Part shown: one piece after another, positions 8,980-31,776 of the stretch | Layout of the letters: the number at the start of each line of letters is the position of its first letter | Position numbering within the stretch: the stretch's first letter is position 1 | Source: Ruminococcus albus 7 = DSM 20455 | GTDB taxonomy: Bacteria > Bacillota > Clostridia > Oscillospirales > Ruminococcaceae | NCBI RefSeq assembly: GCF_000179635.2 | Contig: NC_014833.1 | Coordinates: forward strand, 3,630,001-3,662,000 | Reading direction: 5' to 3' | Length of the DNA: 32,000 nucleotides | Notes under the pieces: generated by a model | The model's database searches: none | The model's input: only the letters and a program-made list of their open reading frames with translations | Told to the model about the DNA's origin: nothing | Translations under genes and position numbers: made by a program

Positions 8980-11808
8980 ATGAGTAAAAGTAAAAGTGTG
9001 TCTATAGACACAAAAAAAGCGAGAATACTGTCTATCTGTTTTGTAGCTGTATTCATCATCGTGGTATTTGTTATCCCGATAGTTCATGTAGCAGCCGAAG
9101 GTACTGACAGTATTGACTGGGGCGTAAAATATGAAGTTGGTCGGGTCGTTGAAGGTAACAATCGAATAAAAAACGCTATTAGGTATGTCGAGTACAACAC
9201 GCTCAAGTTCATGTGCGTTACGATTGACGAGTTCGACAAAGGACTTACAACCCTTTTAGATATAAATTTATACACGCTAATAAAAAATAAATTTAATATT
9301 ACATCAGTTGTATACCCGGTAGCGTGGGCATTAGTATCTCTTTCGCTTGTTATAGCGGCAGTTATGCTGCTGATTAATGCTGATAAGATGCGATTGTCTG
9401 ACTTCTTCCGAAATCTGCTTGTATCCATTATGTTACTGGTAGCTTTACCGACTTTGGTCAGTCAGTTTTCAAGCCTGCGTACCCGTGGAGTGAAAAGCGT
9501 TAAAAGCTCCTTTAATGAAGACATAGTTGTTAACGAGGATACCACGATAACGAGCCCTACGTTAGGTCAAAATTTACTTGCTAACAGCATAACTAGAGTC
9601 AAGGAATCGGTTAAAAACAATAAGTTACTAAAGTACAGCTCATCGGATAATGCCGTTTTTAAAAGCAGTCCGGAACGTGTATATAGCTTACCGATCAACC
9701 AAACGATCCACTCTGACAGTTTTGACAGAAAGTGGAGCGATACAGGCAGGGATCAAAGAGCCCCAGCTGTCGTTCAGAAAAAATACGAGACTCTAACACT
9801 GGAAGATAAAATAACTTTGCTTGATGCTGAGTTTACTCATGCAACTTCACAGTATGACTATCAATCAACTATACTCTCAATCTACGAATACTGGGAGAAA
9901 TCAAACAAGGACGATCATTATATCGAGGTACATAATGATAAAGATGGTAACACGGATTTTATATATACTAAAGTTGGCGGAGCTGTAGTAGCAGCCGGTG
10001 TTTATAGAGATAGAGGGCAAAAAGTATGGTGTAGGTTCGCTCCGTATAATGGCTTTACAGTCTATAGCCCTGTTTCACAAATATTCGAGGGTGACACCAT
10101 ATATACAGATGTAGATATGACCAAAAAAACGCCAAAAGCTATCCCTTATCTATCGACATGGAAAAGGATCGACGAAAATAATTACGAACAATTTGGTTAT
10201 AGTTCACAGGAAGATGCTAGTAAAGACCCAAAATGGTACAGTCATTGGCAGTATGATTCATTTCCTGCATTTAACTACATAACAAAAATAAATTGTCGTA
10301 TGGTTGAGTATATGAATGAACTTGCTCTGAGTAATGATATTCCAAGCGAATTCAACAAAGTATTTACTGCTGAATGGTCCTACTATAATTTGATCGGTAA
10401 TTCTCCCAGTAGCGTTGAGGAACTAATAAGAAGAATTGAAGATAATAAGGTATATCTTAAACAATATGGTACCAATTTCAGCCTCATTGAATATCTGAAT
10501 ATGGAAGAAAACTATCGTAAAATAATTGAAGACAAGAAAGACAATGGCGTAGCTCAGTTTGAACCACTTCATACTAAGGAAATGCAGGAAGCTGCAAAAA
10601 AAGATGAACCATTCTCGGCAGCTCTTAATGCGATGATATACGTTGACGGATATGAAGAAGTCTACTATTATTACATTGACTTCCTTCCTACGTTCATTTT
10701 AGTTGTAGTCACTCTTATTAGTATGTGTTTTGCTATGATTAAGATCGTAAGACTGCTTTTTGATTTGCTTTTCGCACAGATTGTAGCACCGTTGGTCGTA
10801 GCATCTGATCTAAGTGGTTCAGGTAGAGCAAAACAAGTTGTACAGAACCTTATATCGTGCAACATCGTAATGATAGCTGTTATTTTTATCCTTAGACTTT
10901 ATATCTACGTGCTGATATCTGCACAGGACAAGAACTATCCGTTTACCGTCCTGATAGCTCTCACTGTTGGAGGAGCTATGTTTGTCATCGACGGACCCGA
11001 TCTTATTGTTAAGATACTTGGTGTTGATGCAGGCGTTAAATCGGGTGCAGCTGCTATAATGTCGATCAGATCTGCAACACAGATCGCAGGCAGTGCTGTT
11101 AGCAATACAAGCAGGACCGTAGGTAACATTGTGAAGAAAGGAAACACAACTGCCGCTGCTGTTGCAGGAGGAATAGCCGGAGTTCATTCAGGAATGAAGT
11201 CCGGTGCTGATTTTGGTAGAAATATAGTCCAAAATGTCGCCACAAATTCTGATGGTTCCTATAAAAATGTAGGTGGTAAGATATTATCTAATACTTTTTC
11301 TGGTATTGGTTCTGCGTTTGGTGGCATCGGTGGTGGAATCGTAGGAGCTGGTAAAGGTTATATGACCGGAGAAAATGAGGCAAGAAATTCTCAAGGTGCA
11401 GTTTCAACTGCAGTTCATGGTGTTAAAGGCGTGTACACTGCGGCAACAAGTAATTCAAGCATTGGACATAGCAGCAACCATACATCATCCAATGCAGGCT
11501 CTGCAAGCACGCCGACTATCGGCAGAACAGAAACAAGTAATACAAATACAGTCACCACTGAAAAAAATGATTCAGGCAACTCCAATCTAGCTGCATCTAA
11601 GGGCGATAAAGGCGAAATGGGTATAAATGGAGTTAATGGTCATAATGGCAATGACGGTAAAAATGGCATTGATGGAATAAATGGACAGAATAATGTTAAC
11701 ACAACATCGAACAATACAGCAAATATCGGCAATGCTTTTAATAAGCCTACCAATAATATTGCTAATGAGCCTACAAATCAGCAAGTATATAATGACCTCA
11801 ACAAATAA
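8980..11808 (+). CDS. VirB6/TrbL-like polytopic T4SS channel protein with Gly-rich and collagen-like (G-X-Y)10 C-terminal tail
   Basis: ATG 8980 lies 7 nt after GGAGGA (8967-8972); the track's TTG 8965 sits on top of that SD (8967-8972), so it has none of its own. There is an N-terminal TM, two more TMs, a ~390-aa soluble insert, then 4-5 TMs (aa ~570-700). The tail contains GIGSAFGGIGGGIVGAGKG and GDKGEMGINGVNGHNGNDGKNGIDGINGQN (11602-11691). Confidence 0.65.
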   Translation: MSKSKSVSIDTKKARILSICFVAVFIIVVFVIPIVHVAAEGTDSIDWGVKYEVGRVVEGNNRIKNAIRYVEYNTLKFMCVTIDEFDKGLTTLLDINLYTLIKNKFNITSVVYPVAWALVSLSLVIAAVMLLINADKMRLSDFFRNLLVSIMLLVALPTLVSQFSSLRTRGVKSVKSSFNEDIVVNEDTTITSPTLGQNLLANSITRVKESVKNNKLLKYSSSDNAVFKSSPERVYSLPINQTIHSDSFDRKWSDTGRDQRAPAVVQKKYETLTLEDKITLLDAEFTHATSQYDYQSTILSIYEYWEKSNKDDHYIEVHNDKDGNTDFIYTKVGGAVVAAGVYRDRGQKVWCRFAPYNGFTVYSPVSQIFEGDTIYTDVDMTKKTPKAIPYLSTWKRIDENNYEQFGYSSQEDASKDPKWYSHWQYDSFPAFNYITKINCRMVEYMNELALSNDIPSEFNKVFTAEWSYYNLIGNSPSSVEELIRRIEDNKVYLKQYGTNFSLIEYLNMEENYRKIIEDKKDNGVAQFEPLHTKEMQEAAKKDEPFSAALNAMIYVDGYEEVYYYYIDFLPTFILVVVTLISMCFAMIKIVRLLFDLLFAQIVAPLVVASDLSGSGRAKQVVQNLISCNIVMIAVIFILRLYIYVLISAQDKNYPFTVLIALTVGGAMFVIDGPDLIVKILGVDAGVKSGAAAIMSIRSATQIAGSAVSNTSRTVGNIVKKGNTTAAAVAGGIAGVHSGMKSGADFGRNIVQNVATNSDGSYKNVGGKILSNTFSGIGSAFGGIGGGIVGAGKGYMTGENEARNSQGAVSTAVHGVKGVYTAATSNSSIGHSSNHTSSNAGSASTPTIGRTETSNTNTVTTEKNDSGNSNLAASKGDKGEMGINGVNGHNGNDGKNGIDGINGQNNVNTTSNNTANIGNAFNKPTNNIANEPTNQQVYNDLNK
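8997..9012. repeat. Copy A of the perfect 16-bp palindrome TGTGTCTATAGACACA
   Basis: Exact match. Lies 17 nt inside the VirB6-like CDS (codons SVSIDT), just after the pilin-gene hairpins. Confidence 0.95.
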
Positions 11809-11826
11809 ACGCAAAGGAGATTAATT

Positions 11827-12195
11827 ATGGGAATGATACCTAAAAAGACCAAGTCTGAGACAAAAGTATTCAAAGGTCTGACTGCACAGCGTTTTATGGG
11901 GCTTTTTGTCATAATCATGATATCATCAATGATAGGTTCCCTGATAGGTGGAGCGATGCAATGGCTTTTTATCGCTTGTTCTATAATCGTATACTTCATT
12001 CTGACCGGAAAATCACTTACTAATCCCTCTCAGTCTTTTGCCCGCGGTCTGATAAACTTTATCCGATTTAAGTTTGACAACAACTTTTTTATTGGTTCTT
12101 CCAATCATGATTATATTGAATACCAGCAGACGATCAAGGAGAAAGAAAATGAAAAGTCTAAGAGAAATAAAAATAAAAAACATAAAGAAAACTAA
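11827..12195 (+). CDS. PrgI/VirB3-like small T4SS membrane protein
   Basis: 122 aa. SD AAGGAG upstream. Two adjacent TM helices after a KVFKGLTAQRF motif. Lies immediately upstream of, and overlaps, the VirB4 gene, as in PrgI-PrgJ type loci. Confidence 0.6.
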   Translation: MGMIPKKTKSETKVFKGLTAQRFMGLFVIIMISSMIGSLIGGAMQWLFIACSIIVYFILTGKSLTNPSQSFARGLINFIRFKFDNNFFIGSSNHDYIEYQQTIKEKENEKSKRNKNKKHKEN

Positions 12196-14834: not shown

Positions 14835-16079
14835 ATGGAAACTAAAAAAAGTAATATAATATATACCTTATTCATTCTCATAACGATCCCTCTATTCTTC
14901 TTCATGCTGAGCTATCCTGCTTTGAGATCTAAAGCAAATGACAATAAAAGCAAATACTACAACGAAAGCATAGAGCTAGGCGCCTACATGATAAAGGTAT
15001 CTGATGCAGCTTATCTTGAAGATAAATCAGAACTTGATTTTATGCTATCTGTAATAAAAAAATCAGGCAAAACTGAAGAAGTAAAGCCTGAGATAGAGTC
15101 AGTATACTATTATTATAAAGGTGGCAAATACAAAGATGTAACATCGAATATGACCATAGATCAGCTGAGTGATATATCATCACTTGCGAAAATAAGTGAT
15201 GCTGAAAGTGAGTTTTCTTACATCGGTATTGCTGTCTCTTATAAAGAAAATGACCACTATGCCGATGATAAAGTCGATGAATTCGGTGATACGATCAAAG
15301 GTGAACTGATTGAAGGCAAGACATATAAAGTGGTCATTTGTATTGATAAGCGCGATATAGAATTCATGGATTCCAAGGATTACGATCCCAAAGGCAAGGA
15401 TCTATCATCGCAAGAAAGTGATGATACGAGCAGCGAATATGATGATGATTCCTCAAAGCCTGAGTATACTTCTATAACAACAACTACAACAAAACCTATG
15501 CTTGTGCCGGACAGTCGTCAAATCACAACAACTAGCCGAATTTCTGAAAGCTCATCATCTTCTTCAAAAAAAGATAACAGTTCCTCCGCTGCTAGTCATA
15601 ATAATTCAGTAGGAAATGGAAATGTTGGAGGTTATTCAGGTGGGTATTCCGGTGGAGGATATTCAGGCGGAGGTAATAATTACAACGACTATGAAGAACC
15701 TCCGAGAGAAGAAGGAACAACAACCACTAAGCAAGTTACAACATCAGTAACAACTACAGCAACAACACCTCAGCCGACCGTTACAACAACACCTGCGCCT
15801 GTCACAAGAGCTATTATTCATGTGGACGGTATCAAGCTGGAAACAGACTATGCTGCAAATAATGTTACTCTTAAAATCGGTGAAAAACATAAAATCAAGG
15901 CTGTAATATCACCAGATAATGCAGATGACAAGTCAGTAAAATGGGAGAGTAACCGTGAAGATATTGCTGTTATCGATGCAAACGGAGAGATAAAAGCAGT
16001 CGGAAAAGGTAAGGCTATAATCACCGCAACGACAAATGACGGCGGTCTGAAAGCAAGCTGCATGGTGACAGTATCATAA
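14835..16079 (+). CDS. Membrane-anchored surface protein: N-terminal TM, unknown ~200-aa domain, Ser/Thr-rich and GGYS-repeat linker, C-terminal Big_2 (bacterial Ig-like) domain
   Basis: ATG 14835 lies 7 nt after AAAGGAG (14821-14827). TM segment IIYTLFILITIPLFFFMLSYPAL. Low-complexity TTTTTKP..SSSSSSKK..GGYSGGYSGGGYSGGG..TTTTKQVTTSVTTTATTPQPTVTTTPAP. C-terminal Big_2 pattern KIGEKHKIKAVISPDNADDKSVKWESNREDIAVIDANGEIKAVGKGKAIITATTNDGGLKASCMVTV. Confidence 0.7.
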   Translation: METKKSNIIYTLFILITIPLFFFMLSYPALRSKANDNKSKYYNESIELGAYMIKVSDAAYLEDKSELDFMLSVIKKSGKTEEVKPEIESVYYYYKGGKYKDVTSNMTIDQLSDISSLAKISDAESEFSYIGIAVSYKENDHYADDKVDEFGDTIKGELIEGKTYKVVICIDKRDIEFMDSKDYDPKGKDLSSQESDDTSSEYDDDSSKPEYTSITTTTTKPMLVPDSRQITTTSRISESSSSSSKKDNSSSAASHNNSVGNGNVGGYSGGYSGGGYSGGGNNYNDYEEPPREEGTTTTKQVTTSVTTTATTPQPTVTTTPAPVTRAIIHVDGIKLETDYAANNVTLKIGEKHKIKAVISPDNADDKSVKWESNREDIAVIDANGEIKAVGKGKAIITATTNDGGLKASCMVTVS

Positions 16080-16083: not shown

Positions 16084-16099
16084 TGTGTCTATAGACACA
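16084..16099. repeat. Copy B of the palindrome TGTGTCTATAGACACA
   Basis: Exact match. Lies 5 nt after the Big_2 gene stop and 30 nt before ATG 16129. Confidence 0.95.
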
Positions 16100-16128
16100 G
16101 ATATCATTTATAACAGGAGGATGAAAAA

Positions 16129-16917
16129 ATGACTGATAGAAACAATATATCATACGATAAATATCCGTTTAATGACGATGTTAAGCTTTCTTATTTCGGC
16201 AGATCTGACAAGGAAATCGACTACATAATCAGGCAAGGAATTGATGATTTTAAGAACGGAAGAGCGTTTCCCGAGAACGGTAATTTCAACGGACTTGACA
16301 ACTACAGCGTAATGATGGAGATAAATAATACTGTTGTCGGTGTTCGTTTGCCCGACCTTACCTATGCAACATGGAACGGTAATACAACAGATGGTGTCAG
16401 CAACGGACACTATATGATGACAAGAAAAAGTGCTCTTGAAGACTTCGCAGTACGCGCAAATATCATCGATAAGCAGAGGTATATTACTAACGATGAATAC
16501 TCTAAGATAATGATAGACGGTCTGATTCCCGAAAGAATACGTGACGATATATCCAAAAACTTGCAGGATAATCTTGACAGTTACGGTTCGGATGGATTCA
16601 CTTTCTGCGTTATTTCATATGCGGGAAATAGCGTAGCAACTTCTATGGATATGATGGATAACGATATATTTTACGAACATATCAGAGATTTCTTTGATGA
16701 AAACGATTGGTATCCTGACGGCGATTATGTTGATTTTCATGTGACAGAATACAAGTACGGTTATGGAAAAACCACCGCAACAGATATACAGATCGAATAT
16801 ATAAATGCTCATCTGGACAACGTATTATTGTTCTCACAGGAAACAGATCATCAAGCTTTTGAAGTAGACAGGCAGTATATTTTGAACCTTGACATGGGAG
16901 ATTATCATGGACGATAA
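16129..16917 (+). CDS. Hypothetical cytoplasmic protein, strongly acidic
   Basis: 262 aa. AGGAGG (16115-16120) lies 8 nt before the ATG. No signal peptide or TM. By my count 35 Asp + 12 Glu against 10 Lys + 13 Arg. No recognisable domain. Confidence 0.6.
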   Translation: MTDRNNISYDKYPFNDDVKLSYFGRSDKEIDYIIRQGIDDFKNGRAFPENGNFNGLDNYSVMMEINNTVVGVRLPDLTYATWNGNTTDGVSNGHYMMTRKSALEDFAVRANIIDKQRYITNDEYSKIMIDGLIPERIRDDISKNLQDNLDSYGSDGFTFCVISYAGNSVATSMDMMDNDIFYEHIRDFFDENDWYPDGDYVDFHVTEYKYGYGKTTATDIQIEYINAHLDNVLLFSQETDHQAFEVDRQYILNLDMGDYHGR

Positions 16918-17548
16918 TAACTTTTTTGAATATCCGTATAGCGAATTTCGCGATGGTGTTGAACAGGATTTCACCGAGAATGTCCGAATAAAAAAGAAAG
17001 TATTTTATAAAAACGTAGGGATAATCGCTGCCGGTATAATATGTATGTTGCTGTTCGTTCTCAGGCTGCCAAGCATATTCCTGTGGTTAGGTATAATACT
17101 TCTTATCATCGGTTCCGTTCTATTTAAGAATACATCAAAGAACGATGAACACTTGCTTGAAATATATGCCGGAGAACGTAAGATGGAACTTATATATTAT
17201 ACAAACAGCTATCGTTTCAAGCGTGTTCTGAATGTAGCTTATGAAGATATTCTACGAGCAGAATTTGCAAATAACAGCTATGAAAAATTTCGTTTGTGCT
17301 TTAAAACCAGTGAAGATACAAACCTAAGTTCATTCACTTTGGACAACAAAAAGCTTGACGAACCTCTTGAAAATATATTAGAATTTGACCTTGCTCCTAA
17401 CTCACTTGAACAAGGTTTCTTTTTATATCTTGCTTCAAGCTGTTTCGTTATCCGTAACTACAACAGAAAGAAAATCGAGAAAAAATTCGGCACAGCCGAG
17501 GACTATTTTGATAATATTGGTGCTGATTTCTTCTCTCCCGGAGAATAA
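16907..17548 (+). CDS. Hypothetical membrane protein (2 TM hairpin plus cytoplasmic domain)
   Basis: ATG 16907 overlaps the preceding stop by 11 nt, with GGGAG 6 nt upstream. TM pair VGIIAAGIICMLLFVL / IFLWLGIILLIIGSVLF. No recognisable domain. Confidence 0.55.
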   Translation: MDDNNFFEYPYSEFRDGVEQDFTENVRIKKKVFYKNVGIIAAGIICMLLFVLRLPSIFLWLGIILLIIGSVLFKNTSKNDEHLLEIYAGERKMELIYYTNSYRFKRVLNVAYEDILRAEFANNSYEKFRLCFKTSEDTNLSSFTLDNKKLDEPLENILEFDLAPNSLEQGFFLYLASSCFVIRNYNRKKIEKKFGTAEDYFDNIGADFFSPGE

Positions 17549-17564
17549 AAAAGGAGTAACTTAT

Positions 17565-17954
17565 ATGAGTAAAAGTAAGAATGATATTCACATAAGAGGT
17601 CTTTCAGATAAAACGCTTAATGAACTAGATAATATAATGATAAAGCGTGGAATAGTATCAAGGAATGATATGATATGCAAAATTATTGAGGAATATGTTG
17701 CCTGCAATAATGATGAAATGGTCGAGTTTCTTCCGAAAATAGTTCGCTCTTTGTGTCGTGATGAAATAAAAAACACATCTGCAAACTCCTCGGAACTCAT
17801 CACTGATGTATACAGAACTATGCTAAGATTAATAAGAATAACACAGAAATTAGAGAATTTTCTGTATCCGGAACTCGATAAAATTGATGCTAATGACTTA
17901 AATTCTAAGCAACTTTTGGCGATAATAAATGCTGCGGAGAGTTCAGATGAATAA
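17565..17954 (+). CDS. Ribbon-helix-helix (CopG/Arc-like) DNA-binding protein, putative relaxosome accessory factor
   Basis: ATG 17565 follows AAAGGAG (17550-17556). N-terminal RHH pattern: beta strand DIHIRGLSD, helix KTLNELDNIMIKRG, helix SRNDMICKIIEEYV. The track's 17385 start is an out-of-context extension overlapping the upstream gene. Confidence 0.6.
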   Translation: MSKSKNDIHIRGLSDKTLNELDNIMIKRGIVSRNDMICKIIEEYVACNNDEMVEFLPKIVRSLCRDEIKNTSANSSELITDVYRTMLRLIRITQKLENFLYPELDKIDANDLNSKQLLAIINAAESSDE

Positions 17955-17994
17955 TAGCAATCAGTAATAAATGGTAATATTTAGGAATTATATG

Positions 17995-18158
17995 GTATGT
18001 TTGTATGAACAATGCTGTATGTCTGTATGAACAATGCTGTATGTCTGTATGAACAATGCAGTATGTCTGTATGAACAATAGCTAATAGCGTAGTATGCTT
18101 GTATGAACAAACTCACACCATTAACCTCATATAACGGTATGACTGTATGAACAAATAT
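17995..18158 (+). repeat. Six direct copies of a 22-bp unit GTATG-N3-GTATGAACAA-N4; four perfect-phase tandem copies plus two spaced copies
   Basis: Units start at 17995, 18017, 18039, 18061, 18093 and 18137. The core TGTATGAACAA is at 18002, 18024, 18046, 18068, 18100 and 18144. Spacings are 22, 22, 22, 32 and 44 bp, about 2, 2, 2, 3 and 4 helical turns. All copies share one orientation. An AT-rich stretch lies just upstream (17955-17994). Confidence 0.9.
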
Positions 18159-18187
18159 CCTAAATCAAATCCCATATTAATTGTCAT

Positions 18188-18234
18188 AAAAGTGCGGTAC
18201 TACCGCACTTTCTTACTGGAGATGTCCCATCTCC
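18188..18234 (+). promoter_or_regulatory. Two perfect inverted repeats downstream of the 22-bp repeats (candidate oriT hairpins / nic-proximal IR)
   Basis: AAAGTGCGGTA-C-TACCGCACTTT (18188-18211, 11-bp arms) and GGAGATG-TCC-CATCTCC (18218-18234, 7-bp arms). They lie 50-100 bp upstream of the second RHH gene and the relaxase. Confidence 0.5.
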
Positions 18235-18284
18235 TTTATGCTCTTTGTACTATTCTCAGCCACAATACAAAAGGAGTGTGTAAA

Positions 18285-18743
18285 ATGCCGCGTCAAAGAA
18301 GAATATTTTCACTAGATGAAAGAACAGTTGAATTGATAGACCTGTTAAAAACAGAACGTGGTCTTTCAAATACATCAGAACTTATCAGGGCGCTGATAAT
18401 TGAAGCAGCCATTGCCGAGAACATAACAAGCGACTACGGTGAACTGCCGAGTACAGCCGAACGTAAGAGGGCAAAATCTGATATAGCGTCTAGGCTCGAT
18501 CGTATGGAAGTTGCACTATCAAAACTGTCACACCAGATGAGTGATGTAAAGGAATACACCTACGAAACACGCGACGGTGTTAACAGCTACCTCAACTTCT
18601 TGGGAGTTGAGAACACAGACACAGCTGACGAAAACATTAACAGCCAAACGATACATAAAAGTTTACAGCAGGCAAAACAGAATTACAACTCTCAGCAAAG
18701 ACAAAATTCTATCAACAAAGCTAACTTCGGGGGCGGTTATTAA
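18285..18743 (+). CDS. Ribbon-helix-helix DNA-binding protein, putative relaxosome accessory factor
   Basis: ATG 18285 follows AAAGGAG (18270-18276). RHH pattern: RIFSLDERT / VELIDLLKTERGLS / NTSELIRALIIEA. Its stop overlaps the relaxase ATG (TAATG). The track's 18147 start lies inside the last 22-bp repeat. Confidence 0.6.
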   Translation: MPRQRRIFSLDERTVELIDLLKTERGLSNTSELIRALIIEAAIAENITSDYGELPSTAERKRAKSDIASRLDRMEVALSKLSHQMSDVKEYTYETRDGVNSYLNFLGVENTDTADENINSQTIHKSLQQAKQNYNSQQRQNSINKANFGGGY

Positions 18744-21700
18744 TGGCTTCACCGGCAGTATTTTTTAAGATACAGTTTTTGTATAATTGGTACATTCGTC
18801 CCGACAATAATAATTCGGGAAAAAACATAAAAATAAAAGGCGACTTCAATGACTATATGACACGTCCTGCCGCGTTCAAGCCCAAAGAACATACCGACGA
18901 AGAAGAATACAAGGACTTTCTCGACTACATGAGGAACAATGAAAAGTCAGAAGGCGCTTTCGATACCGATCATGATCTACTCACCAAAGAACAAATGTCA
19001 GCTTACCGCGAACAGGAGCGTGTTGCCCGCGATAACGGCTGTCCGAAATATGGCGGTGTGATTTCTTTTAATAATGAATTTCTGCGTAACAACGGTATCA
19101 TGATCGGAAGTGCCATTGACTACATTAAACTAAAGAACGTGGTTCGTAATGGTATAAATAAGATGATCGACAAGTCAGACAAGCTTTCCGCTGATAACAT
19201 CAACTGGATAGGTGCGATACATGAAAACACAGATAATATCCACATACATTTTGCTATGTATCCGCTGGAAAGAACTACACGCAGGAATCACAAAGATAAA
19301 AATCAGGACTGCATAGAACAGGATGCTATCAAAACATTAAAGTCAACGATAGCAAACGGCATAATCAATCAGACACATACACCCGAGATAACACGAATCA
19401 AACGTGAGATACTTTTCCCTCAGCTGTCCGATGCTATGGGCGATGCCGAAAAGATGCTGCTTGAATTGGCGAATAGATTTCCGCCGAATATTGCAATGCA
19501 GTATGGTAATCATCGCATGAAACCTTTCCAGCGCGAGATCGACAAGTGTATTGATAAGATAATCGGCTCGGATCCCGAACTTAAAAAGTCATTTGACTTG
19601 TATGTATCATCGTTAGGTATGATGGATAGGCAGTATCAGGATTTTTATGGTGACGAATCGCAGGCGCTTACTTATTCGGAACATCAGATGGAGGACTTCT
19701 ATAATCGTGCCGGAAACATTCTGTTAAAACACATTAAGGAAATGAAAAACGGTGAATTTCCTGATACCGGGTCCGATGAACTTATAAAACGACTGAGCGA
19801 TAAGGGTGTATCCGGGAGAGAAGAAAAAAGGGATAATGATGAACTTCGAGATTATCTGCTCAGTAATAACAAATACATCAGCAACTATAATATTGCGAAC
19901 AATGCGCTTGGGCTTATCAAAGATGATGATGACATCAAACAGCTTGAAAGTGTAGCCGATATTTCTGATACAGCTGCTTTTGCGCTTGGTATGTACTACA
20001 AGGATAAAGACAAAAAACTATCAGAAAAATATTTGCTTATGTCGGCAAACAATAATGACCGTGATTCTCAGTATCAGCTAGGCAAACTTTATCTGTCTGA
20101 CGATGATATAAAGCAAGGTGCAGAATGGATGCGGCGCTCTGCCGATAACGGTCACGCTTATGCACAATATGCTTACGGCATAATGATGTTAAAGAACGAT
20201 AGTCCCGAAGAGGGATTATATTATCTTAATAACTCATATAAAAACGGAAACAAGATCGCGCATAAGGTGGCGCAGTCATATAAGAAAAAGCTAGCTGAAC
20301 AAAAACAGGATACAGAGCAAGAACAGGAATTCGATGACCAACATCATTTTAATATGCAAAATGATAGATCATACCGGCACGATTATAATGATGATACAAA
20401 CATCATCGACGAAGAACAGACGTTTGATCATGATGCACATAACTCTACAGTTATTGCCGGCAATTATCATCTTGACTGGACAAATGAATACAAGCAAGCT
20501 TGTAAACTGATTTACAGTAAGAAATCAATAATCGATGACTACATCAAAGCCGAACAGCTATTGCTTTCAGAAGCAAAAAACGGAAACGTACTTGCGATTC
20601 ACGATCTCGGAAAGCTTTATAATACTGAACTGCTGGGAGCAGCAGATAAAGAAAAATCTGACAAGTATTATCATGAAGCTTTCGATGTGTTCAATGATCT
20701 CCTAAAAACAGGTAGCAAACATACATCATACATTCAATATCGTATCGGAAAAATGTACTCCTATGGCTTAGGTGTTGAAGCTGACGATGAAAAAGCCTAT
20801 CGATTTTATTCATCGTCAGCCGAAAGTGGTAACAAATACGCTATGTACAGCCTAGCTAACTGTTATTATTATGGGAGAGGAACAAACACTGACCATGAAA
20901 CAGCTTTTAAGTGGTACTCAAGAGCTGCACAGCTGAATATGCCTTATGCGAACTATGCTGTAGCTCAGATGTATCAGACTGGTGACGGTACAACACAGGA
21001 TCTAAACAAAGCCTATGAGAACTACCGCATAGCGCTAGATGCTTTCCTAAAGCTTAATGAAAAAGAGCAAGCGGATGATAATTTACTCTACAAGATCGGC
21101 TATATGTATAAAAAAGGTCTTGGAACAGATATAGATGTCTCAAAATCTTTGGAGTTTTTCGCAATGTCAGCAAAGCAAGGCAACAAAAATGCACTATATG
21201 AATATGGCAAGGCTCTCATCGAAGGTACAGATATCACACCAAACATTTCAATAGGTGAAACATATCTCAAAAAAGCAATTAAGGCGGGAAACACAAACGC
21301 TGAACGTTTCCTTGCCAACGAATATTTATCCGGGAAACATATTCCGGTGACAACCGATAAGGTACAGATGGGCATGGAGATATTCAAAAGGCTAGCAGAT
21401 CAAGGTGATACGTTATCTGCATATCGTTTAGGTAAGGTATACCTCGACGGAAAAGTTACTCCACGAAATGTTGATCTTGCAGAACGATATCTGCTGCAAG
21501 CATACAGTTCTAGCGAACATAAGGAACTTGCTGCATACTCCCTGGGCAAGCTCTATATGACTGAGGAAAAATGCAACCATAAAAAAGCGATTGCTTTTTT
21601 TAAGGAAGTTGCGGACACAAACAACTGGGCAAGTTATCAGTTAGGAAAAATATATTTTTCAGACAAAAATGCTTCTTCTGCTAAAAGTTGGTTCAAACGT

Positions 21701-24285: not shown

Positions 24286-24471
24286 ATGGCTGTTTCAGAA
24301 GCTCATCAGAAAGCCAATATCAAATGGGGCAAAGAGAACTTAACTAATCTAGCAGTCAGACTTCGCAAAGAAAAGGCTGCTAAGTTTAAAGAACTTGCGT
24401 ACAAAAACAATACAACACCAAACGCTCTATTCAAAGAATTCGTAGATAAATATATTGAGGACAACTCTTGA
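24286..24471 (+). CDS. Small RHH-like DNA-binding protein, paralogue 1
   Basis: 61 aa. SD AGAGGTGA upstream. Pattern AHQKANIKWGKENL-[beta LAVRLRKE]-[helix KAAKFKELAYKNN]-[helix TPNALFKEFVDKYIE]. About 45% identical by eye to the next ORF. Confidence 0.65.
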   Translation: MAVSEAHQKANIKWGKENLTNLAVRLRKEKAAKFKELAYKNNTTPNALFKEFVDKYIEDNS

Positions 24472-24500
24472 CATACACAACCGATTATGGAGGTGATAGA

Positions 24501-24695
24501 ATGGCATTGACAGAAGCTCAAAAAAAAGCAAATGCAAAATGGAATAAAGCAAATATGAAACAGATTGCAGTAAATGTACGAAAAGAAAAAGCGGAGATGT
24601 TTCAGGAACTTGCAAGACAAAACGGTACCAATCCCTCTGCGATCTTTCGGGAAGTTATCGATAAATACATAGAAGAACATAATAATAATACTTGA
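24501..24695 (+). CDS. Small RHH-like DNA-binding protein, paralogue 2
   Basis: 64 aa from ATG 24501, preceded by GGAGGTGA (24489-24496); the track's TTG 24468 is the TTGACA box. Pattern AQKKANAKWNKANM-IAVNVRKE-KAEMFQELARQNG-NPSAIFREVIDKYIE. Confidence 0.65.
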   Translation: MALTEAQKKANAKWNKANMKQIAVNVRKEKAEMFQELARQNGTNPSAIFREVIDKYIEEHNNNT

Positions 24696-25656: not shown

Positions 25657-26166
25657 ATGAAGAAAATAACAGCTCGTGATTATCTGAGAATAATACGTGA
25701 GAACTACGGAACTATTCATTACTGCGCAGAAACCTGTGGATTCAAGTCAAGTGACTTCGGGAATATTGAAGCCGGGGTTGAGAACGATATCCGCGTGATA
25801 GCGAACACGTTCTTTCTTTTCTCCCGGAGATTTGGATTGAACTACTATGAGCTCATGATGATGGAAGCTAAGTTTCAGCTAGGTGATGAACCACCCAAAA
25901 CTAAACCTAAAGCAAATGTTTCATTTGCAGAACTGCTAAAGAAAACACGAACGCAGGCGGGTATATCACAAGCAAAGCTTGCGGATACTATCTGCTGCAC
26001 TAAGTTCACTGTATACACATGGGAATGTGGTGACAACATACCTGATCTAGAGATGCTCGAGCGTATCTGTTATGCATTGAAAGTTCCAGCCGATTTTTTC
26101 GATGCAGTATACAAGGCTGAACGATTTCAGCCGAGAACACCAAGAGAAAGGAAAAAGAAAGAATGA
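25657..26166 (+). CDS. XRE-family HTH transcriptional regulator (degenerate N-terminal HTH plus canonical C-terminal HTH)
   Basis: 169 aa from ATG 25657. C-terminal Cro/C1-type HTH: FAELLKKTRTQAGISQAKLADTICCTKFTVYTWECGDNIPDLEMLERICYALKV. Its stop overlaps the topB start (ATGA). Confidence 0.7.
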   Translation: MKKITARDYLRIIRENYGTIHYCAETCGFKSSDFGNIEAGVENDIRVIANTFFLFSRRFGLNYYELMMMEAKFQLGDEPPKTKPKANVSFAELLKKTRTQAGISQAKLADTICCTKFTVYTWECGDNIPDLEMLERICYALKVPADFFDAVYKAERFQPRTPRERKKKE

Positions 26167-28343: not shown

Positions 28344-28581
28344 TGTTTTAGATTAAGCGATGTCTATCCCGTAAGCGTATAACCCTCCGCACCTACCCCA
28401 TCGAAGTCTAATGAAGTATAATGAACTCCAAGGAACATCATGAAGTAAATTGGACAATCCAAATTGGTCCATGGAGTTAATTGGAGTATATTAGACAGAC
28501 AGGTGTTTTGCTATTTACCCTGCATTTATATCAGCATCTTAAGAAAGATTGCGAAAAATCCGTATTTTCGCAAACAGGCTA

Positions 28582-29173: not shown

Positions 29174-29195
29174 AAACATAGTAGAATAAATTGTA

Positions 29196-29234
29196 AACAC
29201 GTTCATTTGAAGCAAAATGAGCGTGTTTTGTTTT
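29196..29234 (+). terminator. Rho-independent terminator
   Basis: AACACGTTCATT (29196-29207), 8-nt loop, AATGAGCGTGTT (29216-29227). This is a 12-bp stem with one G-U pair, followed by TTGTTTT. Confidence 0.7.
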
Positions 29235-29311
29235 ACATAACCGCCTTTCGAGTGAAGCAGAGAGGACGAATTTATCAAAGGGAGGTAAAGTAACCGGTTA
29301 TACGCTTACAG

Positions 29312-29327
29312 TGTGTCTATAGACACA
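29312..29327. repeat. Copy C of the palindrome TGTGTCTATAGACACA
   Basis: Exact match. Lies between the convergent genes 28673-29173 (+) and 29439-29654 (-), 2 nt from the 14-bp inverted-repeat arm at 29296-29309. Confidence 0.95.
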
Positions 29328-29438
29328 GTTCAGCAACCAAAAAGCGTCCGGCACTCACCAAAAGGTGGTGTCAGACGCTTTGTATTCTTATTAGCTTATT
29401 GGTTGAGGTATAATAGTCTGTGCAATTTAACCTCATAC

Positions 29439-29654: not shown

Positions 29655-29683
29655 AAAATAACCTCCTAATTAATATCATTGTT

Positions 29684-31099
29684 TTACGGTATATTATCGC
29701 TCATTGGGTCAGGTATAAGTTGAGGTATATCATCGCTCTTCGTTGTTTTTACGCTTTTGGCAAATTCATAAAACCAACTATCTGCGCTTTCAAGTTCTTC
29801 ATCGGATATGCTTTCTTTGCCATCGCATGGTGCAACAGCAAACGAGAACATAGTATCCACAAAGTTTTCATCCATGCAATGCACGTCTATTAATGAATAA
29901 CTTCCTCTCTTGCTCTCATTCTTATAGTCATGCATGGTGTTATCTCTTAATATAATAACTGCTCTGTTTCCATCTTTTTTGATAGTATATGTAAACAGTT
30001 TAGAATCTATATGTCCAAAAAGACTTAAATCTCTTATTTCTTTTTCACAAAGATTTTTAAGATTATCATCTGTGTATTCCGTAAGGTCAAGCTCCTTTGC
30101 ACTACCACCGAGTTTGTGTATCGCATATCTCTGATCGTTCACTTCATATACGTAAGCACATTTCTCGTAGTTCATATATGCGGGAAGTTCATAGTTTATA
30201 TCGAAACTGTAATCACTCATTTGATCCCAAGAGCAACTCGAGAAGCTTTTTATTTCCTCTGGTTTCGGAATATCTTCAAATGAACCGATATAATGTTTTG
30301 CCGAATTTAAATATTCGCTGTTAATCCAAATGTTCGATACAGTTTTAGTTTTAAGGTCTATTTTTACTTCATAATAATACCCGGTTCTGCTGTAAACACC
30401 CTCTTCTAATTCTTTTTGGTATGATGTGATGCTGGAATCAAGAATATCATTATTTCCTTTTGGTTCAATATAAGCATCCGTCACCATATCCTTTATGTAA
30501 AAAAGAGTATCCACATCTTCTAAATCGGGTTCGCCCCAAAGCTTGCGGACATCCTCTATCGGCATACCTACCTTTACTCCTTTTGGAAATACCACATCAT
30601 TAATGTCTGATAATGAAATAACATTACAATCCGATAATAACTGCTTTTCATCTTTTGTTTTAGTGAAGAAAAAGCTTGTTTTAACATCATCGATAATAAC
30701 ATCATAAATACTCGATTCTGCAATGACCGTCGATGGATCATCACCTTGGGTTATTCCATCATTCGCATCATCAGCAAGTTCTACACCGTCCATGTCAAAC
30801 AGTTCCTTAGCCGTCATGGGCAATTTTATAACCTTTTCACCCACCTGAAACACATCAGTATACATATCCGCATTCAGTACTTCATCAGCTATCTTTGTTT
30901 CAGAATCGCTTTCATTCTCCGCGGCACTGTCATTATTTTGATTTTCTTCATTTCCACTTTTTTCGACTTCTGTTTTATCATTAGAAATTTTACTGGACTG
31001 TGTAACGATTTTACTTTCGTTATCTGCATTTCCGCAGCCTGTGATACAGCCACAGATGCATACAGCCGTTATGAGTGATATTAATGCTTTTGTTTTCAT
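29684..31099 (-). CDS. Lipoprotein of unknown function (471 aa)
   Basis: Start chosen at ATG 31099 (MKTKALISLITAVCICGCITGCGN), with AAGGAG (reverse complement of 31107-31112) 7 nt upstream. Lipobox ITGC. An acidic, low-complexity linker is followed by about 380 aa with no recognisable domain. The track's 31165 start would begin within the -35 box of this gene's own promoter. Confidence 0.7.
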   Translation of the reverse strand: MKTKALISLITAVCICGCITGCGNADNESKIVTQSSKISNDKTEVEKSGNEENQNNDSAAENESDSETKIADEVLNADMYTDVFQVGEKVIKLPMTAKELFDMDGVELADDANDGITQGDDPSTVIAESSIYDVIIDDVKTSFFFTKTKDEKQLLSDCNVISLSDINDVVFPKGVKVGMPIEDVRKLWGEPDLEDVDTLFYIKDMVTDAYIEPKGNNDILDSSITSYQKELEEGVYSRTGYYYEVKIDLKTKTVSNIWINSEYLNSAKHYIGSFEDIPKPEEIKSFSSCSWDQMSDYSFDINYELPAYMNYEKCAYVYEVNDQRYAIHKLGGSAKELDLTEYTDDNLKNLCEKEIRDLSLFGHIDSKLFTYTIKKDGNRAVIILRDNTMHDYKNESKRGSYSLIDVHCMDENFVDTMFSFAVAPCDGKESISDEELESADSWFYEFAKSVKTTKSDDIPQLIPDPMSDNIP

Positions 31100-31136
31100 A
31101 AAAATACTCCTTAGAATATGATTTTGTAACATAAAT

Positions 31137-31165
31137 ATTATACCTGAATTAAGAAAAGATGTCAA
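31137..31165 (-). promoter_or_regulatory. Perfect consensus sigma-A promoter for the lipoprotein operon
   Basis: On the minus strand: TTGACA (31165-31160), 17 nt, TATAAT (31142-31137). Confidence 0.7.
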
Positions 31166-31241
31166 TAGATTTGTTAGGTGTCCTTAAATAAAACGTAAGA
31201 TAATATAATTTTAGCTGTACAATATAACTCCCTAATAGACA

Positions 31242-31270
31242 TTGACTTTTTTACTAAGCTATGATATATT
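31242..31270 (+). promoter_or_regulatory. Sigma-A promoter with extended -10, divergent from the lipoprotein promoter
   Basis: TTGACT (31242-31247), 17-nt spacer ending TGA, TATATT (31265-31270). Confidence 0.55.
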
Positions 31271-31327
31271 ATTAGTTATAAACAAACTGTCTATGAAAGT
31301 ATATGATTTCAAATGGAGGTGCTAGTC

Positions 31328-31744
31328 ATGAATAATAAACTAATTAACAATGAAACTGAAAAATTTGGTCTAAAAGTGGGTGCTGTTTCATTACTTATCA
31401 ACACTGGCATAGCTTATTTGTATATGTCTCGTTTTCAAGGTTTTGATACTGGCATACAGATATTATTAGCTTTTCTGATAACGATTCTTATGCCGATTGT
31501 TTTTCTCGTATGCGTTCAACATAAATTCAATATTAGTTTAATAATACTAGCAATATCATCTATATGGTATGCAGGCTTCATTACTGGCTTTGGCGTACAT
31601 CTATTCAAATATAAGGAAATAACACTATTACGTACTATTGCTTTTTTAATAATAGGGATAATGGAATATGGTTTTCATATGTATATCTGGTTTTTCCTTG
31701 ATCAGATAATAATTAAATATAAGCACATAATGCGCCGAAAATAA
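31328..31744 (+). CDS. Integral membrane protein (138 aa, about 4 TM), unknown function
   Basis: ATG 31328 lies 7 nt after GGAGGT (31315-31320). Four hydrophobic segments. Basic C-terminus. Confidence 0.6.
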   Translation: MNNKLINNETEKFGLKVGAVSLLINTGIAYLYMSRFQGFDTGIQILLAFLITILMPIVFLVCVQHKFNISLIILAISSIWYAGFITGFGVHLFKYKEITLLRTIAFLIIGIMEYGFHMYIWFFLDQIIIKYKHIMRRK

Positions 31745-31760
31745 TCTTTAAAAAGTATAC

Positions 31761-31776
31761 TGTGTCTATAGACACA
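31761..31776. repeat. Copy D of the palindrome TGTGTCTATAGACACA
   Basis: Exact match. Lies 17 nt after the stop of 31328-31744 and 10 nt before the 13-bp-stem terminator. Confidence 0.95.

What the first reader, a model, noticed from the sequence alone, without database searches (positions are those of the whole stretch)
8997..31776. A perfect 16-bp palindrome, TGTGTCTATAGACACA, occurs four times across the element
Exact copies sit at 8997-9012, 16084-16099, 29312-29327 and 31761-31776. A given 16-mer is expected about once per 4.3 x 10^9 nt, so four identical copies in 32 kb cannot be chance. The flanks share no similarity, so only the 16-bp core is conserved.

Positions:
- Three copies are intergenic, 5-140 nt after a stop codon.
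- One copy lies 17 nt inside the VirB6-like gene, immediately after the pilin attenuator.
- Copy B lies 30 nt upstream of a gene start.

The stem would be only 6-7 bp and AT-rich, with no consistent U tract, so these are not ordinary terminators.

The best-fitting model is a dispersed binding site for a dimeric DNA-binding protein. The established precedents are the KorB operators scattered over IncP plasmids and 16-bp palindromic parS sites bound by ParB. That would make it either a global regulon operator or a centromere-like site. Candidate binders in the window are the XRE protein (25657-26166), the RHH proteins and the wHTH protein. A ParB/KorB-like protein could also lie outside the window.

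The alternative is a REP-like extragenic palindrome. A half-site, TGTCTAT, also occurs at 28361 and 9028.
Basis: partly seen in the sequence, partly recalled or inferred. Interest (0 to 1): 0.7.

Follow-up and report, generated by a model that had tools for sequence, protein, structure and literature searches.

The report
Dispersed parS-like sites on a Ruminococcus ICE
The four identical 16-bp palindromes are real and are most likely binding sites for a ParB-family partition/silencing protein that the same mobile element encodes about 20 kb outside the window, making this a Gram-positive counterpart of the parS and KorB-operator systems already known from plasmids.

Summary
In detail: TGTGTCTATAGACACA occurs exactly four times at the stated coordinates, and no further copies appear with up to 3 mismatches.

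- **Origin.** Apart from one IS1595-family insertion, the window is 100% identical to Ruminococcus albus contig JHYT01000024.1. That contig carries an integrative conjugative element (ICE) of at least 60 kb.
- **Distribution.** The ICE holds at least 9 exact copies plus 1 degenerate copy. None lies in the 8.5 kb of adjoining chromosome.
- **Across 185,579 species genomes.** Multi-copy occurrence is confined to contigs of rumen Ruminococcus and related rumen Clostridia genomes; those examined carry conjugation, parAB or integrase genes. This excludes a generic REP element.
- **Candidate binder.** A parA-parB operon sits at the ICE's left end.
- **ParB association.** Every locus examined with a ParB at least 48% identical carries the motif or its variant next to parAB, in three lineages inside parB itself. 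Seventy-five loci with more distant ParBs carry none.
- **Covariation.** One ParB subclade changes the Arg aligned with Caulobacter R173 to Val. R173 is the residue that reads the G at position 2 of parS. The sites of that subclade change symmetrically at exactly that base (TCTGTCTATAGACAGA).
- **Placement.** Sites are mostly intergenic. Elsewhere on this ICE and in related elements, several sit 6-8 bp upstream of a −35 box or over the −10/TSS, as KorB operators do.

Verdict: an undescribed ParB-parS/KorB-like system. It is a new member of a known kind, and no binding has been shown experimentally.

The parts
8997..9012 (.). Site A: exact 16-bp palindrome, +17 to +32 of the VirB6-like (DUF8208) gene. 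It follows the hairpin-rich VirB2-like/VirB6-like intergenic region.
   Evidence: It is conserved at the syntenic position in R. albus AR67 (L042:2971), in DNA that is about 93% identical.
16084..16099 (.). Site B: exact palindrome between the Big_2 surface-protein gene (stop at 16079) and the 262-aa gene (ATG at 16129). It starts 6 nt after a weak −10-like TATCAT.
   Evidence: It is conserved in AR67 (L016:4751) and in all contigs carrying the 262-aa gene.
29312..29327 (.). Site C: exact palindrome between convergent genes, followed by a separate strong terminator hairpin at 29341-29381.
   Evidence: hairpin −25.7 kcal/mol. It is conserved in AR67 (L011:431).
31761..31776 (.). Site D: exact palindrome 16 nt after the stop of the 143-aa membrane-protein gene, followed by a separate terminator hairpin at 31783-31826.
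   Evidence: hairpin −28.4 kcal/mol. It is conserved in AR67 (L011:2869), and homology between the two strains ends 2 nt after this site.
8501..8890 (+). VirB2/TrbC-like pilin gene upstream of site A (context: the T4SS operon of the ICE).
   Evidence: weak TrbC match; gene calls.
8980..11808 (+). VirB6-like/DUF8208 membrane-protein gene, which contains site A near its 5' end.
16129..16917 (+). 262-aa gene of unknown function, immediately downstream of site B.
5936..6957 (+). IS1595-family insertion. It is not part of the system but is the only difference between the window and JHYT01000024.1.

Best explanation
The 16-mer is a parS-like site, the core of a ~24-bp palindrome aaAG-TGTGTCTA|TAGACACA-CTtt. 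It is recognised by the dimeric ParB/Spo0J-family protein (P0020, 306 aa) encoded with ParA at the left end of the same R. albus ICE, about 20 kb upstream of the window.

At least nine exact copies and one degenerate copy are spread over the ICE, which is at least 60 kb long. That is roughly one per 6 kb, almost all at gene boundaries.

Inferred mechanism:
- Each site nucleates or loads ParB.
- With ParA, this gives a centromere for the excised circular element.
- Several sites abut or overlap promoters, so bound or sliding ParB probably also represses ICE genes, as KorB does from its OB operators on plasmid RK2.
- The sequence differs from the chromosomal parS (TGTTNCACGTGAAACA) at 3 of 8 half-site positions. 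That would keep the ICE system orthogonal to the host's own ParB.

Shown here: the distribution of sites, their linkage to the ParB clade, the covariation, and their positions relative to genes and promoters.

Inferred: actual binding, CTP-dependent clamping or spreading, partition and repression.
For: 1. Same element. The window is 100.000% identical to JHYT01000024.1 apart from the IS. That contig carries parA (L165:9200-9997) and parB (10001-10921) next to chromosomal genes. ParB passes TIGR00180 (68 bits against a 58.45 cutoff), and its homologue in AR67 passes Pfam ParB_N and HTH_ParB. Its best matches among solved structures are chromosomal ParB/Spo0J/Noc.

2. Element-restricted.
- L165 has exact sites at 11297, 12718 and 18609 plus a 2-mismatch site 190 bp upstream of parA. 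It has none within ≤3 mismatches in the 8.5-kb chromosomal flank.
- L067 adds two more sites beyond the window.
- In the scan of GTDB species representatives, all multi-copy contigs are from rumen Ruminococcus and related rumen Clostridia genomes. R. albus 8 has 5 sites on one 66.6-kb contig, AR67 has 16 on six contigs, and a 'Eubacterium' MAG has 14 on one 77.7-kb contig. The hits in unrelated phyla (26 loci) are single copies per genome.

3. Link to the ParB clade.
- Every locus fetched with a ParB ≥48% identical carries the motif or its variant, or at least a 2-mismatch copy, beside parAB. The one exception is a 1.2-kb fragment (L088).
- In P0008, P0009 and L018, a site lies inside parB at +107 to +155.
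- 75 metagenomic loci with ParBs ≤42% identical have neither the motif nor any recurring palindrome.

4. Mechanistically specific covariation.
- ParBs associated with T-G-TGTCTA carry G-I/V-S-R/K-E-Q (R165 in P0020).
- P0007 and P0006 carry G-I-S-V-E-Q in an otherwise identical recognition helix. Their sites are T-C-TGTCTATAGACA-G-A: five copies of the 14-bp core CTGTCTATAGACAG in L077, and one full site 37 bp upstream of parA in L084.
- This residue aligns with the R of the GKSR motif of B. subtilis Spo0J and with the matching Arg (GKER) of M. xanthus ParB. The equivalent residue in Caulobacter is R173, which hydrogen-bonds the first G of parS, that is position 2 of the 16-mer (PMC7383237).

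5. The half-site shares 5 of 8 bases with parS (TGTgTCta against TGTTTCAC).

6. Position.
- 55 of 65 non-redundant sites are intergenic, against about 23% expected.
- Two sites end 8 and 6 bp upstream of perfect TTGACA-17-TATAAT promoters (L165:12718 and L067:14338).
- Others overlap the −10/TSS (L039:3446, L075:6735, L079:13094 and 13932).
- KorB's OB sites lie 4-10 bp, or 45 to >1000 bp, upstream of target promoters (PMC11790492).

7. A perfect core with graded, degenerate flanks is typical of a protein-binding site rather than of copied DNA.
Against: - No binding data exist.
- The covariation rests on a single evolutionary event, because P0006 and P0007 are sister sequences. ParB and the sites also co-occur partly just because both belong to the same ICE family.
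- The four sites in the window itself are not next to convincing σ70-type promoters, so a regulatory role for them specifically is weak.
- The ParB N-terminal box reads GHHR rather than GERR, so CTP binding or clamping cannot be assumed.
- One canonical site persists inside a gene of the element whose other sites are the variant (L077:19413).
- A distant ParB (29% identity) in the 'Eubacterium' element would have to recognise the same 16-mer.
- RHH/Arc-type repressors also recognise TAGA/TCTA-containing operators (from my own knowledge of the Arc operator). One Arc-like gene sits just upstream of a site (L067:14098-14307).
Confidence: 0.72

Rival explanations
1. The palindrome is the operator of another ICE-encoded transcription factor, such as an RHH/Arc-like, XRE or wHTH protein. 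ParB merely co-resides on the element.
For: - The ICE encodes several small RHH proteins (window 17565-17954, 18285-18743, 24286-24695), an XRE protein (25657-26166) and an Arc-like protein whose stop lies 30 nt before a site (L067:14098-14307).
- Many sites sit in operator-like positions at promoters.
- TCTA/TAGA motifs occur in Arc-type operators (from my own knowledge).
Against: - XRE has no homologue in any other site-bearing locus sampled.
- The Arc-like protein is found only in the AR67 relative.
- The RHH129 family is found only in elements of the window's type and is not seen in the L079, L169 or L077 loci. All of these loci are only partial samples of their elements.
- None of these proteins explains sites inside parB and clustered around parAB.
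- None explains why the base that changes in the variant is the one read by the ParB residue that changes.
Confidence: 0.13
2. The sites are recombination targets or junctions for the ICE's tyrosine recombinase, or microhomology hot spots, that delimit exchangeable gene modules.
For: - A site lies 2 nt after the stop codon of a tyrosine-recombinase gene in four elements (L043, L029, L044, L064), and 7 nt after it for a 24%-identical integrase in the 'Eubacterium' contig.
- Homology between the window and AR67 ends 2 nt after site D.
- 4.5% of internal BLAST alignment ends fall within 10 nt of a site, against 0.7% of sequence.
- A hipA-like cassette is bracketed by two sites.
Against: - Ten or more identical, perfectly symmetric sites in one element would drive deletions and inversions. 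Yet gene order is conserved between the window, AR67 and the 'Eubacterium' element.
- A palindromic core has no asymmetric spacer, so it gives no directionality.
- Once one allows for both sites and breakpoints being intergenic, the breakpoint enrichment disappears (about 3% expected).
- Some of those alignment ends arise simply because the 16-mer is an island of identity in diverged DNA.
Confidence: 0.06
3. The motif is a REP-like extragenic palindrome or an RNA hairpin (a terminator or stabiliser) with no dedicated protein partner.
For: The sites are mostly intergenic and often lie just after stop codons. The consensus scanner flags the hairpin as terminator-like at some copies.
Against: - The motif is absent from the chromosomal flank. 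In whole genomes it is restricted to a few contigs, and those examined carry ICE genes.
- The RNA stem is only 6 bp, at −5.9 kcal/mol, with no consistent U tract.
- Sites C and D are each followed by their own strong terminator.
- Copies also occur in coding sequence and upstream of −35 boxes.
- All 16 bp are conserved, including the loop bases TATA, which is not expected for a hairpin.
Confidence: 0.03

Closest known systems
KorB-OB global regulator and partition system of the IncP-1 plasmid RK2 (with IncC/ParA)
   Same: - The binder is a ParB-family protein encoded next to a ParA.
- A perfectly conserved palindromic site is scattered over a conjugative element of roughly 60 kb. My recollection of 12 OB sites on RK2 would make the density similar, at about one per 5-6 kb.
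- Sites lie a few bp upstream of −35 boxes or at a distance. OB lies 4-10 bp, or 45 to >1000 bp, from promoters (PMC11790492); here two sites lie 6 and 8 bp from consensus promoters.
   Different: - The site sequence is unrelated (OB core TTTAGCSGCTAAA, written from the oligo in PMC11790492).
- By sequence, this ParB is closer to chromosomal ParB/Spo0J/Noc than to KorB. No KorB structure appeared among the PDB hits.
- No KorA/TrbA-like partner or second operator has been identified.
- The host is a Firmicute ICE, not a proteobacterial plasmid.
- Repression is untested.
Chromosomal ParB(Spo0J)-parS (TGTTNCACGTGAAACA)
   Same: - The site is a 16-bp perfect palindrome sharing 5 of 8 half-site bases, including the outer TGT.
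- ParB has the N-terminal domain plus an HTH with the G-x-S-R recognition motif.
- A site lies inside the parB coding sequence in three lineages, as with parS in B. subtilis spo0J (from my own knowledge).
- Multiple sites occur per replicon.
   Different: - The inner half-site is different (GTCTA against TTCAC).
- Site density is far higher.
- Sites span the whole element rather than clustering near an origin.
- The element is integrated in a chromosome that has its own ParB-parS.
- The N-terminal box reads GHHR instead of GERR.
ParB/Noc specificity switch (parS against NBS; Jalal et al. 2020, PMC7383237)
   Same: The change of specificity occurs at the second base of the 16-mer and is accompanied by replacement of the Arg equivalent to Caulobacter R173. 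In Noc it is R→Q with G→A. Here it is R→V with G→C.
   Different: - Here it is a natural variant between sister ICE ParBs, not a paralogue with a new cellular function.
- Only one of the four Noc specificity positions is implicated.
- It has not been tested biochemically.
Partition systems of excised ICEs (for example SrpMRC of SXT/R391, or ParA/ParB-like genes of the ICEclc and Tn4371 families)
   Same: An ICE carries its own segregation module, presumably to maintain the excised circular form (from my own knowledge).
   Different: As far as I know, those systems are not described as having a dozen identical centromere-like sites dispersed across the element.

Membership tests
ParB/Spo0J-parS partition system (type Ia-like ParABS) | The binder has a ParB N-terminal domain and an HTH DNA-binding domain. 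| tested here: met
   - P0020 matches TIGR00180 at 68 bits against a 58.45 cutoff.
- The AR67 homologue matches Pfam ParB_N (44.4 bits against 26.3) and HTH_ParB (27.2 against 22.6).
- phmmer hits solved ParB/Spo0J/Noc structures at 1e-13 to 1e-5.
ParB/Spo0J-parS partition system (type Ia-like ParABS) | A Walker-type ParA ATPase gene lies immediately upstream in the same operon. | tested here: met
   L165:9200-9997 ends 3 nt before parB. It matches AAA_31, CbiA, ParA and MipZ in Pfam and ParA_partition in NCBIfam, the last below its equivalog cutoff.
ParB/Spo0J-parS partition system (type Ia-like ParABS) | A palindromic centromere-like site lies in cis on the same replicon, typically near or inside parAB. 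| tested here: met
   - Sites lie 37-265 bp upstream of parA (L084, L075, L043, L165).
- Sites lie within 0.4-0.8 kb downstream of parB (L165:11297, L043:7816).
- Sites lie inside parB (L018, L079, L169).

ParB/Spo0J-parS partition system (type Ia-like ParABS) | ParB binds the site specifically. | not testable with these tools
   Support is indirect only: clade-specific co-occurrence and the R/K→V against G2→C2 covariation.
ParB/Spo0J-parS partition system (type Ia-like ParABS) | CTP-binding motifs of the N-terminal domain are present (GERRxR box, ENLQR box). | tested here: inconclusive
   The alignment shows GHHRY in place of GERRW, and ESNIHH in place of ENLQR. The Arg aligned with the second Arg of the GERR box is kept, and the other positions differ.
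KorB-type global repressor network | Many identical operators are dispersed over a conjugative element, including promoter-proximal positions. | tested here: met
   - The ICE has at least 9 exact sites and 1 degenerate site over at least 60 kb.
- Two sites lie 6 and 8 bp upstream of TTGACA-17-TATAAT promoters.
- Others lie over the −10/TSS.
KorB-type global repressor network | Target promoters are repressed, and the repressor cooperates with a clamp-locking co-repressor (KorA/TrbA). | not testable with these tools
   No expression data are available, and no KorA-like partner or second operator motif was identified.
KorB-type global repressor network | The protein is orthologous to KorB. | tested here: not met
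   The nearest solved relatives are chromosomal ParB/Spo0J/Noc, and no KorB chain was retrieved at E≤0.01. The site has no similarity to OB.
REP/BIME-type extragenic palindromes | Copies are abundant throughout the host chromosome, irrespective of mobile elements. | tested here: not met
   Multi-copy occurrence is seen only on a few contigs per genome, and those examined carry ICE genes. There are no copies in the 8.5-kb chromosomal flank.
Tyrosine-recombinase core site (lox/dif/att-like) | Inverted binding arms flank an asymmetric 6-8 bp crossover spacer, and there are one or two sites per element. | tested here: not met
   The site is fully symmetric (central CTATAG/TATA). There are at least 10 copies per element, and gene order is conserved.

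The most novel reading that the evidence does not exclude
A chromosomal-type ParB encoded by a Gram-positive ICE uses about 10-14 dispersed parS-like loading sites to coat the whole element. In this reading it acts as a KorB-like long-range silencer of transfer and cargo promoters as well as a centromere-binding protein.

Natural single-residue switches (R165→V, paired with G2→C2 in the site) would then create orthogonal 'ParB-site incompatibility groups' among ICEs sharing a rumen host.
Probability: 0.35. Interest if true: 0.7.

Novelty: new member of a known kind. Interest (0 to 1): 0.5.

Why it matters
- **Wider reach of the KorB principle.** KorB-style control, with one ParB-family protein governing a whole conjugative element from a dozen identical sites, has so far been worked out only for IncP-type plasmids of Gram-negative bacteria. 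A sequence-unrelated but architecturally parallel system on ICEs of rumen Firmicutes would show the strategy is more general.
- **A second experimental system.** It would be based on a ParB closer to the well-studied chromosomal proteins.
- **A ready-made specificity test.** The natural pair R/K with G2 against V with C2 tests the ParB specificity code derived from ParB/Noc.
- **A practical marker.** The 16-mer can be used to delineate this ICE family in rumen metagenomes.

Tried and rejected
- **Plasmid match.** Megablast of window 7000-30000 against PLSDB found nothing. tblastn of ParB against plasmids found only relatives ≤35% identical.
- **Phage association.** Scans of IMG/VR for the 16-mer and for the variant 14-mer gave only single-copy contigs, that is background.
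- **Terminator or RNA hairpin.** The stem is weak, and separate terminators lie next to sites C and D.
- **REP element.** Rejected by the genome-wide scan.
- **In-window binders.** tblastn of XRE, three RHH proteins, the Rep-like wHTH protein and the Arc-like protein against all fetched loci found none that is shared across the sampled site-bearing loci.
- **Recurring palindromes near distant ParBs.** None were found in 75 loci, so the covariation series could not be extended.
- **Sites as mosaic breakpoints.** There is a raw 6-fold enrichment of alignment ends, but it does not exceed what the intergenic location alone predicts.
- **Exact look-up of the 143-aa protein (31313-31744).** It is not on record.
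- **Literature.** A full-text search for the 16-mer returned 0 papers.

Full report
**1. The observation**

TGTGTCTATAGACACA occurs exactly at 8997, 16084, 29312 and 31761. Allowing up to three mismatches adds no further copy. Dinucleotide-preserving shuffles give 0.18 matches on average, and none of 100 reaches four.
- Copy A begins 17 nt after the ATG (8980, preceded by GGAGG) of the VirB6-like/DUF8208 gene.
- Copy B lies between the Big_2 gene stop (16079) and the ATG at 16129.
- Copies C and D lie 138 and 16 nt after stop codons. Each is followed by its own strong terminator hairpin (−25.7 and −28.4 kcal/mol).

**2. What the window is**

The window encodes a Firmicute-type conjugation module:
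- a VirB2-like pilin, a VirB6-like protein, PrgI and VirB4;
- a MobL relaxase with Sel1 repeats, and a VirD4 coupling protein;
- a Rep-like wHTH protein, an XRE protein and topoisomerase III;
- the C-terminal 1,960 aa of a 3,387-aa SNF2/helicase giant protein.

The window is 100.000% identical to contig JHYT01000024.1 (GCA_000621285.1, 71.4 kb). The only difference is a 1,022-bp IS1595-family insertion at 5936-6957.

Three overlapping fetches of that contig (L165, L001, L067) show the layout, read in the window's orientation:
- chromosomal genes (folD-like, lgt, two M16 peptidases, a GGDEF protein);
- parA and parB;
- about 20 small genes, including an RNase_T-domain gene and a DUF3849 gene;
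- a SpaA-type adhesin;
- about 10 kb not seen here;
- the giant protein, then the window region;
- an Arc-like gene, a hipA_C-like gene and an MmeI-type R-M gene, then the contig end.

This is therefore an ICE of at least 60 kb. The ParB (P0020) is identical to ADU23678.1 of R. albus 7, which is recorded on a 3.69-Mb contig. parB ends about 20 kb left of window position 1.

**3. Distribution of the motif**

On this ICE there are three more exact sites in the parAB-proximal part (L165:11297, 12718, 18609). There is also a 2-mismatch copy (TGTGGCTAAAGACACA) 190 bp upstream of parA, and nothing within ≤3 mismatches in the 8.5 kb of chromosomal flank. Two more exact sites lie just right of the window (L067:14338, 15585).

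A scan of one genome for each of 185,579 species found 56 stretches carrying the motif:
- The hits in unrelated phyla (26 loci) are single copies per genome.
- All multi-copy cases are from rumen Ruminococcus and related rumen Clostridia genomes.
- R. albus 8 has 5 sites, all on one 66.6-kb contig.
- R. albus AR67 has 16 sites on six contigs; those examined carry conjugation, parAB, integrase or cargo genes.
- A 'Eubacterium' MAG has 14 sites on one 77.7-kb contig.

The AR67 element is about 91% identical to the window. It keeps all four sites at syntenic positions even where the immediate flanks have diverged. This refutes a generic REP element and shows purifying selection on the 16 bp.

Across 65 non-redundant sites, the half-site logo continues outward as a-a-A-G (65/60/79/57%). 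The functional unit is therefore a ~24-bp palindrome with a perfect core and graded flanks.

**4. Which protein?**

Clustering the ORFs of the site-bearing contigs showed a shared ParA-ParB pair and a shared tyrosine recombinase.

A search with the AR67 ParB returned only 11 relatives. I fetched the contexts of most of them:

| ParB (identity to AR67 ParB) | Sites found |
|---|---|
| P0001 (99%), P0003 (90%), P0020 (97%) | Exact sites flanking parAB |
| P0009 (49%) | Five exact sites in 11 kb, one inside parB at +107 |
| P0008 (49%) | Four exact plus one 1-mismatch site in 7.3 kb, again one inside parB at +107 |
| L018 ParB (48%) | An intragenic site at the homologous place |
| P0007 (53%) | Five copies of a variant sharing the 14-bp core CTGTCTATAGACAG (the full form TCTGTCTATAGACAGA occurs twice) |
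| P0006 (54%, sister of P0007) | The same variant 37 bp upstream of parA |

A metagenome scan with the ParB alignment returned 80 loci. The five with ≥88% identity carry the canonical site or the degenerate parA-upstream copy, except for one 1.2-kb fragment. The 75 loci with ≤42% identity have neither the motif nor any recurring palindrome.

**5. The covariation**

In the alignment of these ParBs, the recognition helix reads as follows:
- G-I-S-R-E-Q-M-Y-R in the ParBs that go with the canonical site;
- G-V-S-K-E-Q in P0009 (canonical site);
- G-V-G-R in the distant 'Eubacterium' ParB (canonical site);
- G-I-S-V-E-Q-M-Y-R in P0006 and P0007 (variant site).

The helices of P0007 and P0008 differ only by R→V.

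phmmer aligns this residue with the R of the GKSR motif of B. subtilis Spo0J and with the matching Arg (GKER) of M. xanthus ParB. That motif is G170-K171-S172-R173 in Caulobacter ParB. In the ParB-parS co-crystal, R173 hydrogen-bonds 'guanine 1' of parS. This is the G of tGTT…, that is position 2 of the 16-mer. R173Q is one of the four substitutions that convert ParB specificity to that of Noc (PMC7383237).

The variant site differs from the canonical one only at position 2 (G→C) and at its symmetric partner, position 15 (C→G). So the base that changed is the base read by the residue that changed.

This is a single evolutionary event, so it is not statistically strong. It is, however, mechanistically specific to ParB, and it fixes the binding register as parS-like. 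The half-site TGTGTCTA shares 5 of 8 bases with the parS half-site TGTTTCAC.

**6. Position relative to genes and promoters**

With a crude ORF model in which 77% of the sequence is coding, 55 of 65 sites are intergenic.

Promoter-related positions:
- Two sites end 8 and 6 bp upstream of perfect TTGACA-17-TATAAT promoters (L165:12718 and L067:14338).
- Others begin at or just after the −10 box (L039:3446; L075:6735 with one mismatch; L079:13094 and 13932).
- Others lie in the leader just before the RBS (L169:6991).
- Several lie upstream of parA.

KorB's operators on RK2 lie 4-10 bp, or 45 to >1000 bp, upstream of target promoters (PMC11790492).

For the four window sites, the promoter scans found nothing convincing. 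Site B follows a weak TATCAT. Site A lies inside the 5' end of the VirB6-like gene, where a bound protein could act as a roadblock. Sites C and D lie between or after genes next to terminators and look more like pure loading or centromere sites.

**7. Model**

Confidence is about 0.7 that ParB is the binder, and about 0.35-0.5 that regulation is part of the function.
- The ICE ParB dimer binds the palindrome.
- With ParA, the roughly 10 sites provide a centromere for the excised circle.
- At one site per ~6 kb, spreading or sliding ParB could cover the whole element and repress promoters that abut sites, as KorB does.
- Divergence from host parS would insulate the ICE from the chromosomal system.
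- The R/K-G2 and V-C2 pairs would define mutually orthogonal groups.

Binding, CTP dependence (the N-terminal box is GHHR, not GERR), partition and repression are all inferred.

**8. Rivals**

- **Another ICE regulator (RHH/Arc/XRE).** This is possible, but none is shared across the sampled site-bearing loci, and none explains the parAB-centred sites or the covariation.
- **A tyrosine-recombinase target.** A site sits 2 nt after the integrase stop codon in four elements, and 7 nt after it for a 24%-identical integrase. Some homology breaks coincide with sites. However, ten symmetric sites would scramble an element whose gene order is in fact conserved. The breakpoint enrichment also vanishes once the intergenic location is accounted for.
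- **REP element or RNA hairpin.** Rejected.

**9. Comparison and novelty**

The protein is a member of the ParB/Spo0J family, and the domain, operon and cis-site criteria are met. It is not a KorB orthologue. The architecture nevertheless resembles KorB-OB.

A full-text search for the 16-mer returned no paper. I rate this as a new member of a known kind. It is of moderate interest because it offers a Gram-positive, ICE-borne parallel to KorB and a natural ParB specificity switch, but it rests entirely on computational inference.

Noticed in passing
window 5936-6957: An IS1595-family insertion sequence is the only difference from the otherwise 100%-identical contig JHYT01000024.1. Its transposase gene is at 6050-6925 and its terminal inverted repeats are GGTTATCCCTTTAAC and GTTAAGGGGATAACC. 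It interrupts a 148-aa gene between the giant SNF2 protein gene and the DUF3991/Toprim gene.
   Followed up: partly
window 31776-31778; L011:2886: Homology between the window and the ~91%-identical R. albus AR67 element stops 2 nt after site D. Several other high-identity alignment ends also coincide with sites (for example L026:7051, L075:134, L086:1632). The sites may mark module junctions, but the enrichment does not exceed what the intergenic location predicts.
   Followed up: partly
L079:19912, L077:19413, L021:148: The canonical 16-mer also sits in frame (encoding SVSIDT) inside a 325-386-aa gene upstream of the SpaA-type adhesin gene. This holds even in L077, whose intergenic sites are the C2/G15 variant. 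It may be a relic, a cross-talk site or a coding constraint; this is unexplained.
   Followed up: no
L043:3021, L029:292, L044:3167, L064:5829, L034:3028: A site lies 2 nt (7 nt in the 'Eubacterium' contig) after the stop codon of a tyrosine-recombinase gene. In several elements that gene is adjacent to parA, in the order hipA-like, site, int, site, parA, parB. This is what a circular junction or a tandem arrangement would produce.
   Followed up: partly
L015:6375, L020:3215 (Halomonas); L024:4786, L057:2640 (Actinomycetota): Single copies of the same 16-mer in unrelated phyla also sit directly after TATAAT/TATACT-like boxes, 10-20 nt upstream of an RBS and ATG. Within each pair the flanks are conserved. 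These are probably unrelated operators of some other palindrome-binding regulator.
   Followed up: no
window 8895-8961: The 90-nt spacer between the VirB2-like and VirB6-like genes folds into strong, mutually exclusive hairpins (GCGGCACACATATTATGTGTGCCG; GGGCAGAAATGTTCTGCTTTTTGC; the whole region folds at −35.5 kcal/mol).
   Followed up: partly
window 24286-24471 and 24468-24695: Two overlapping tandem paralogous small genes (61 and 75 aa, 54% identical, weak RepB-RCR_reg/RHH-like match) lie just upstream of the Rep-like wHTH gene.
   Followed up: no
L041:1687, L041:6054, L055:601, L055:5008: In the 'Eubacterium' contig, several sites are followed by a repeated leader, aaccgcgtgaaaggaatggtt, immediately before the start codon of different genes.
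   Followed up: no
L073:834-5558 versus L165:1550-6287: The chromosomal block M16-M16-lgt-folD next to the ICE's left end is inverted between R. albus SY3-like JAGS01000001.1 and JHYT01000024.1. The adjacent GGDEF gene and parA keep their orientation.
   Followed up: no
L067:14098-15600 and 16094-18880: The ICE cargo just right of the window includes two items. One is an Arc-like gene plus a hipA_C-like 377-aa gene, bracketed by two sites and driven by a consensus promoter. The other is an MmeI-type (type IIL) restriction-modification gene.
   Followed up: partly
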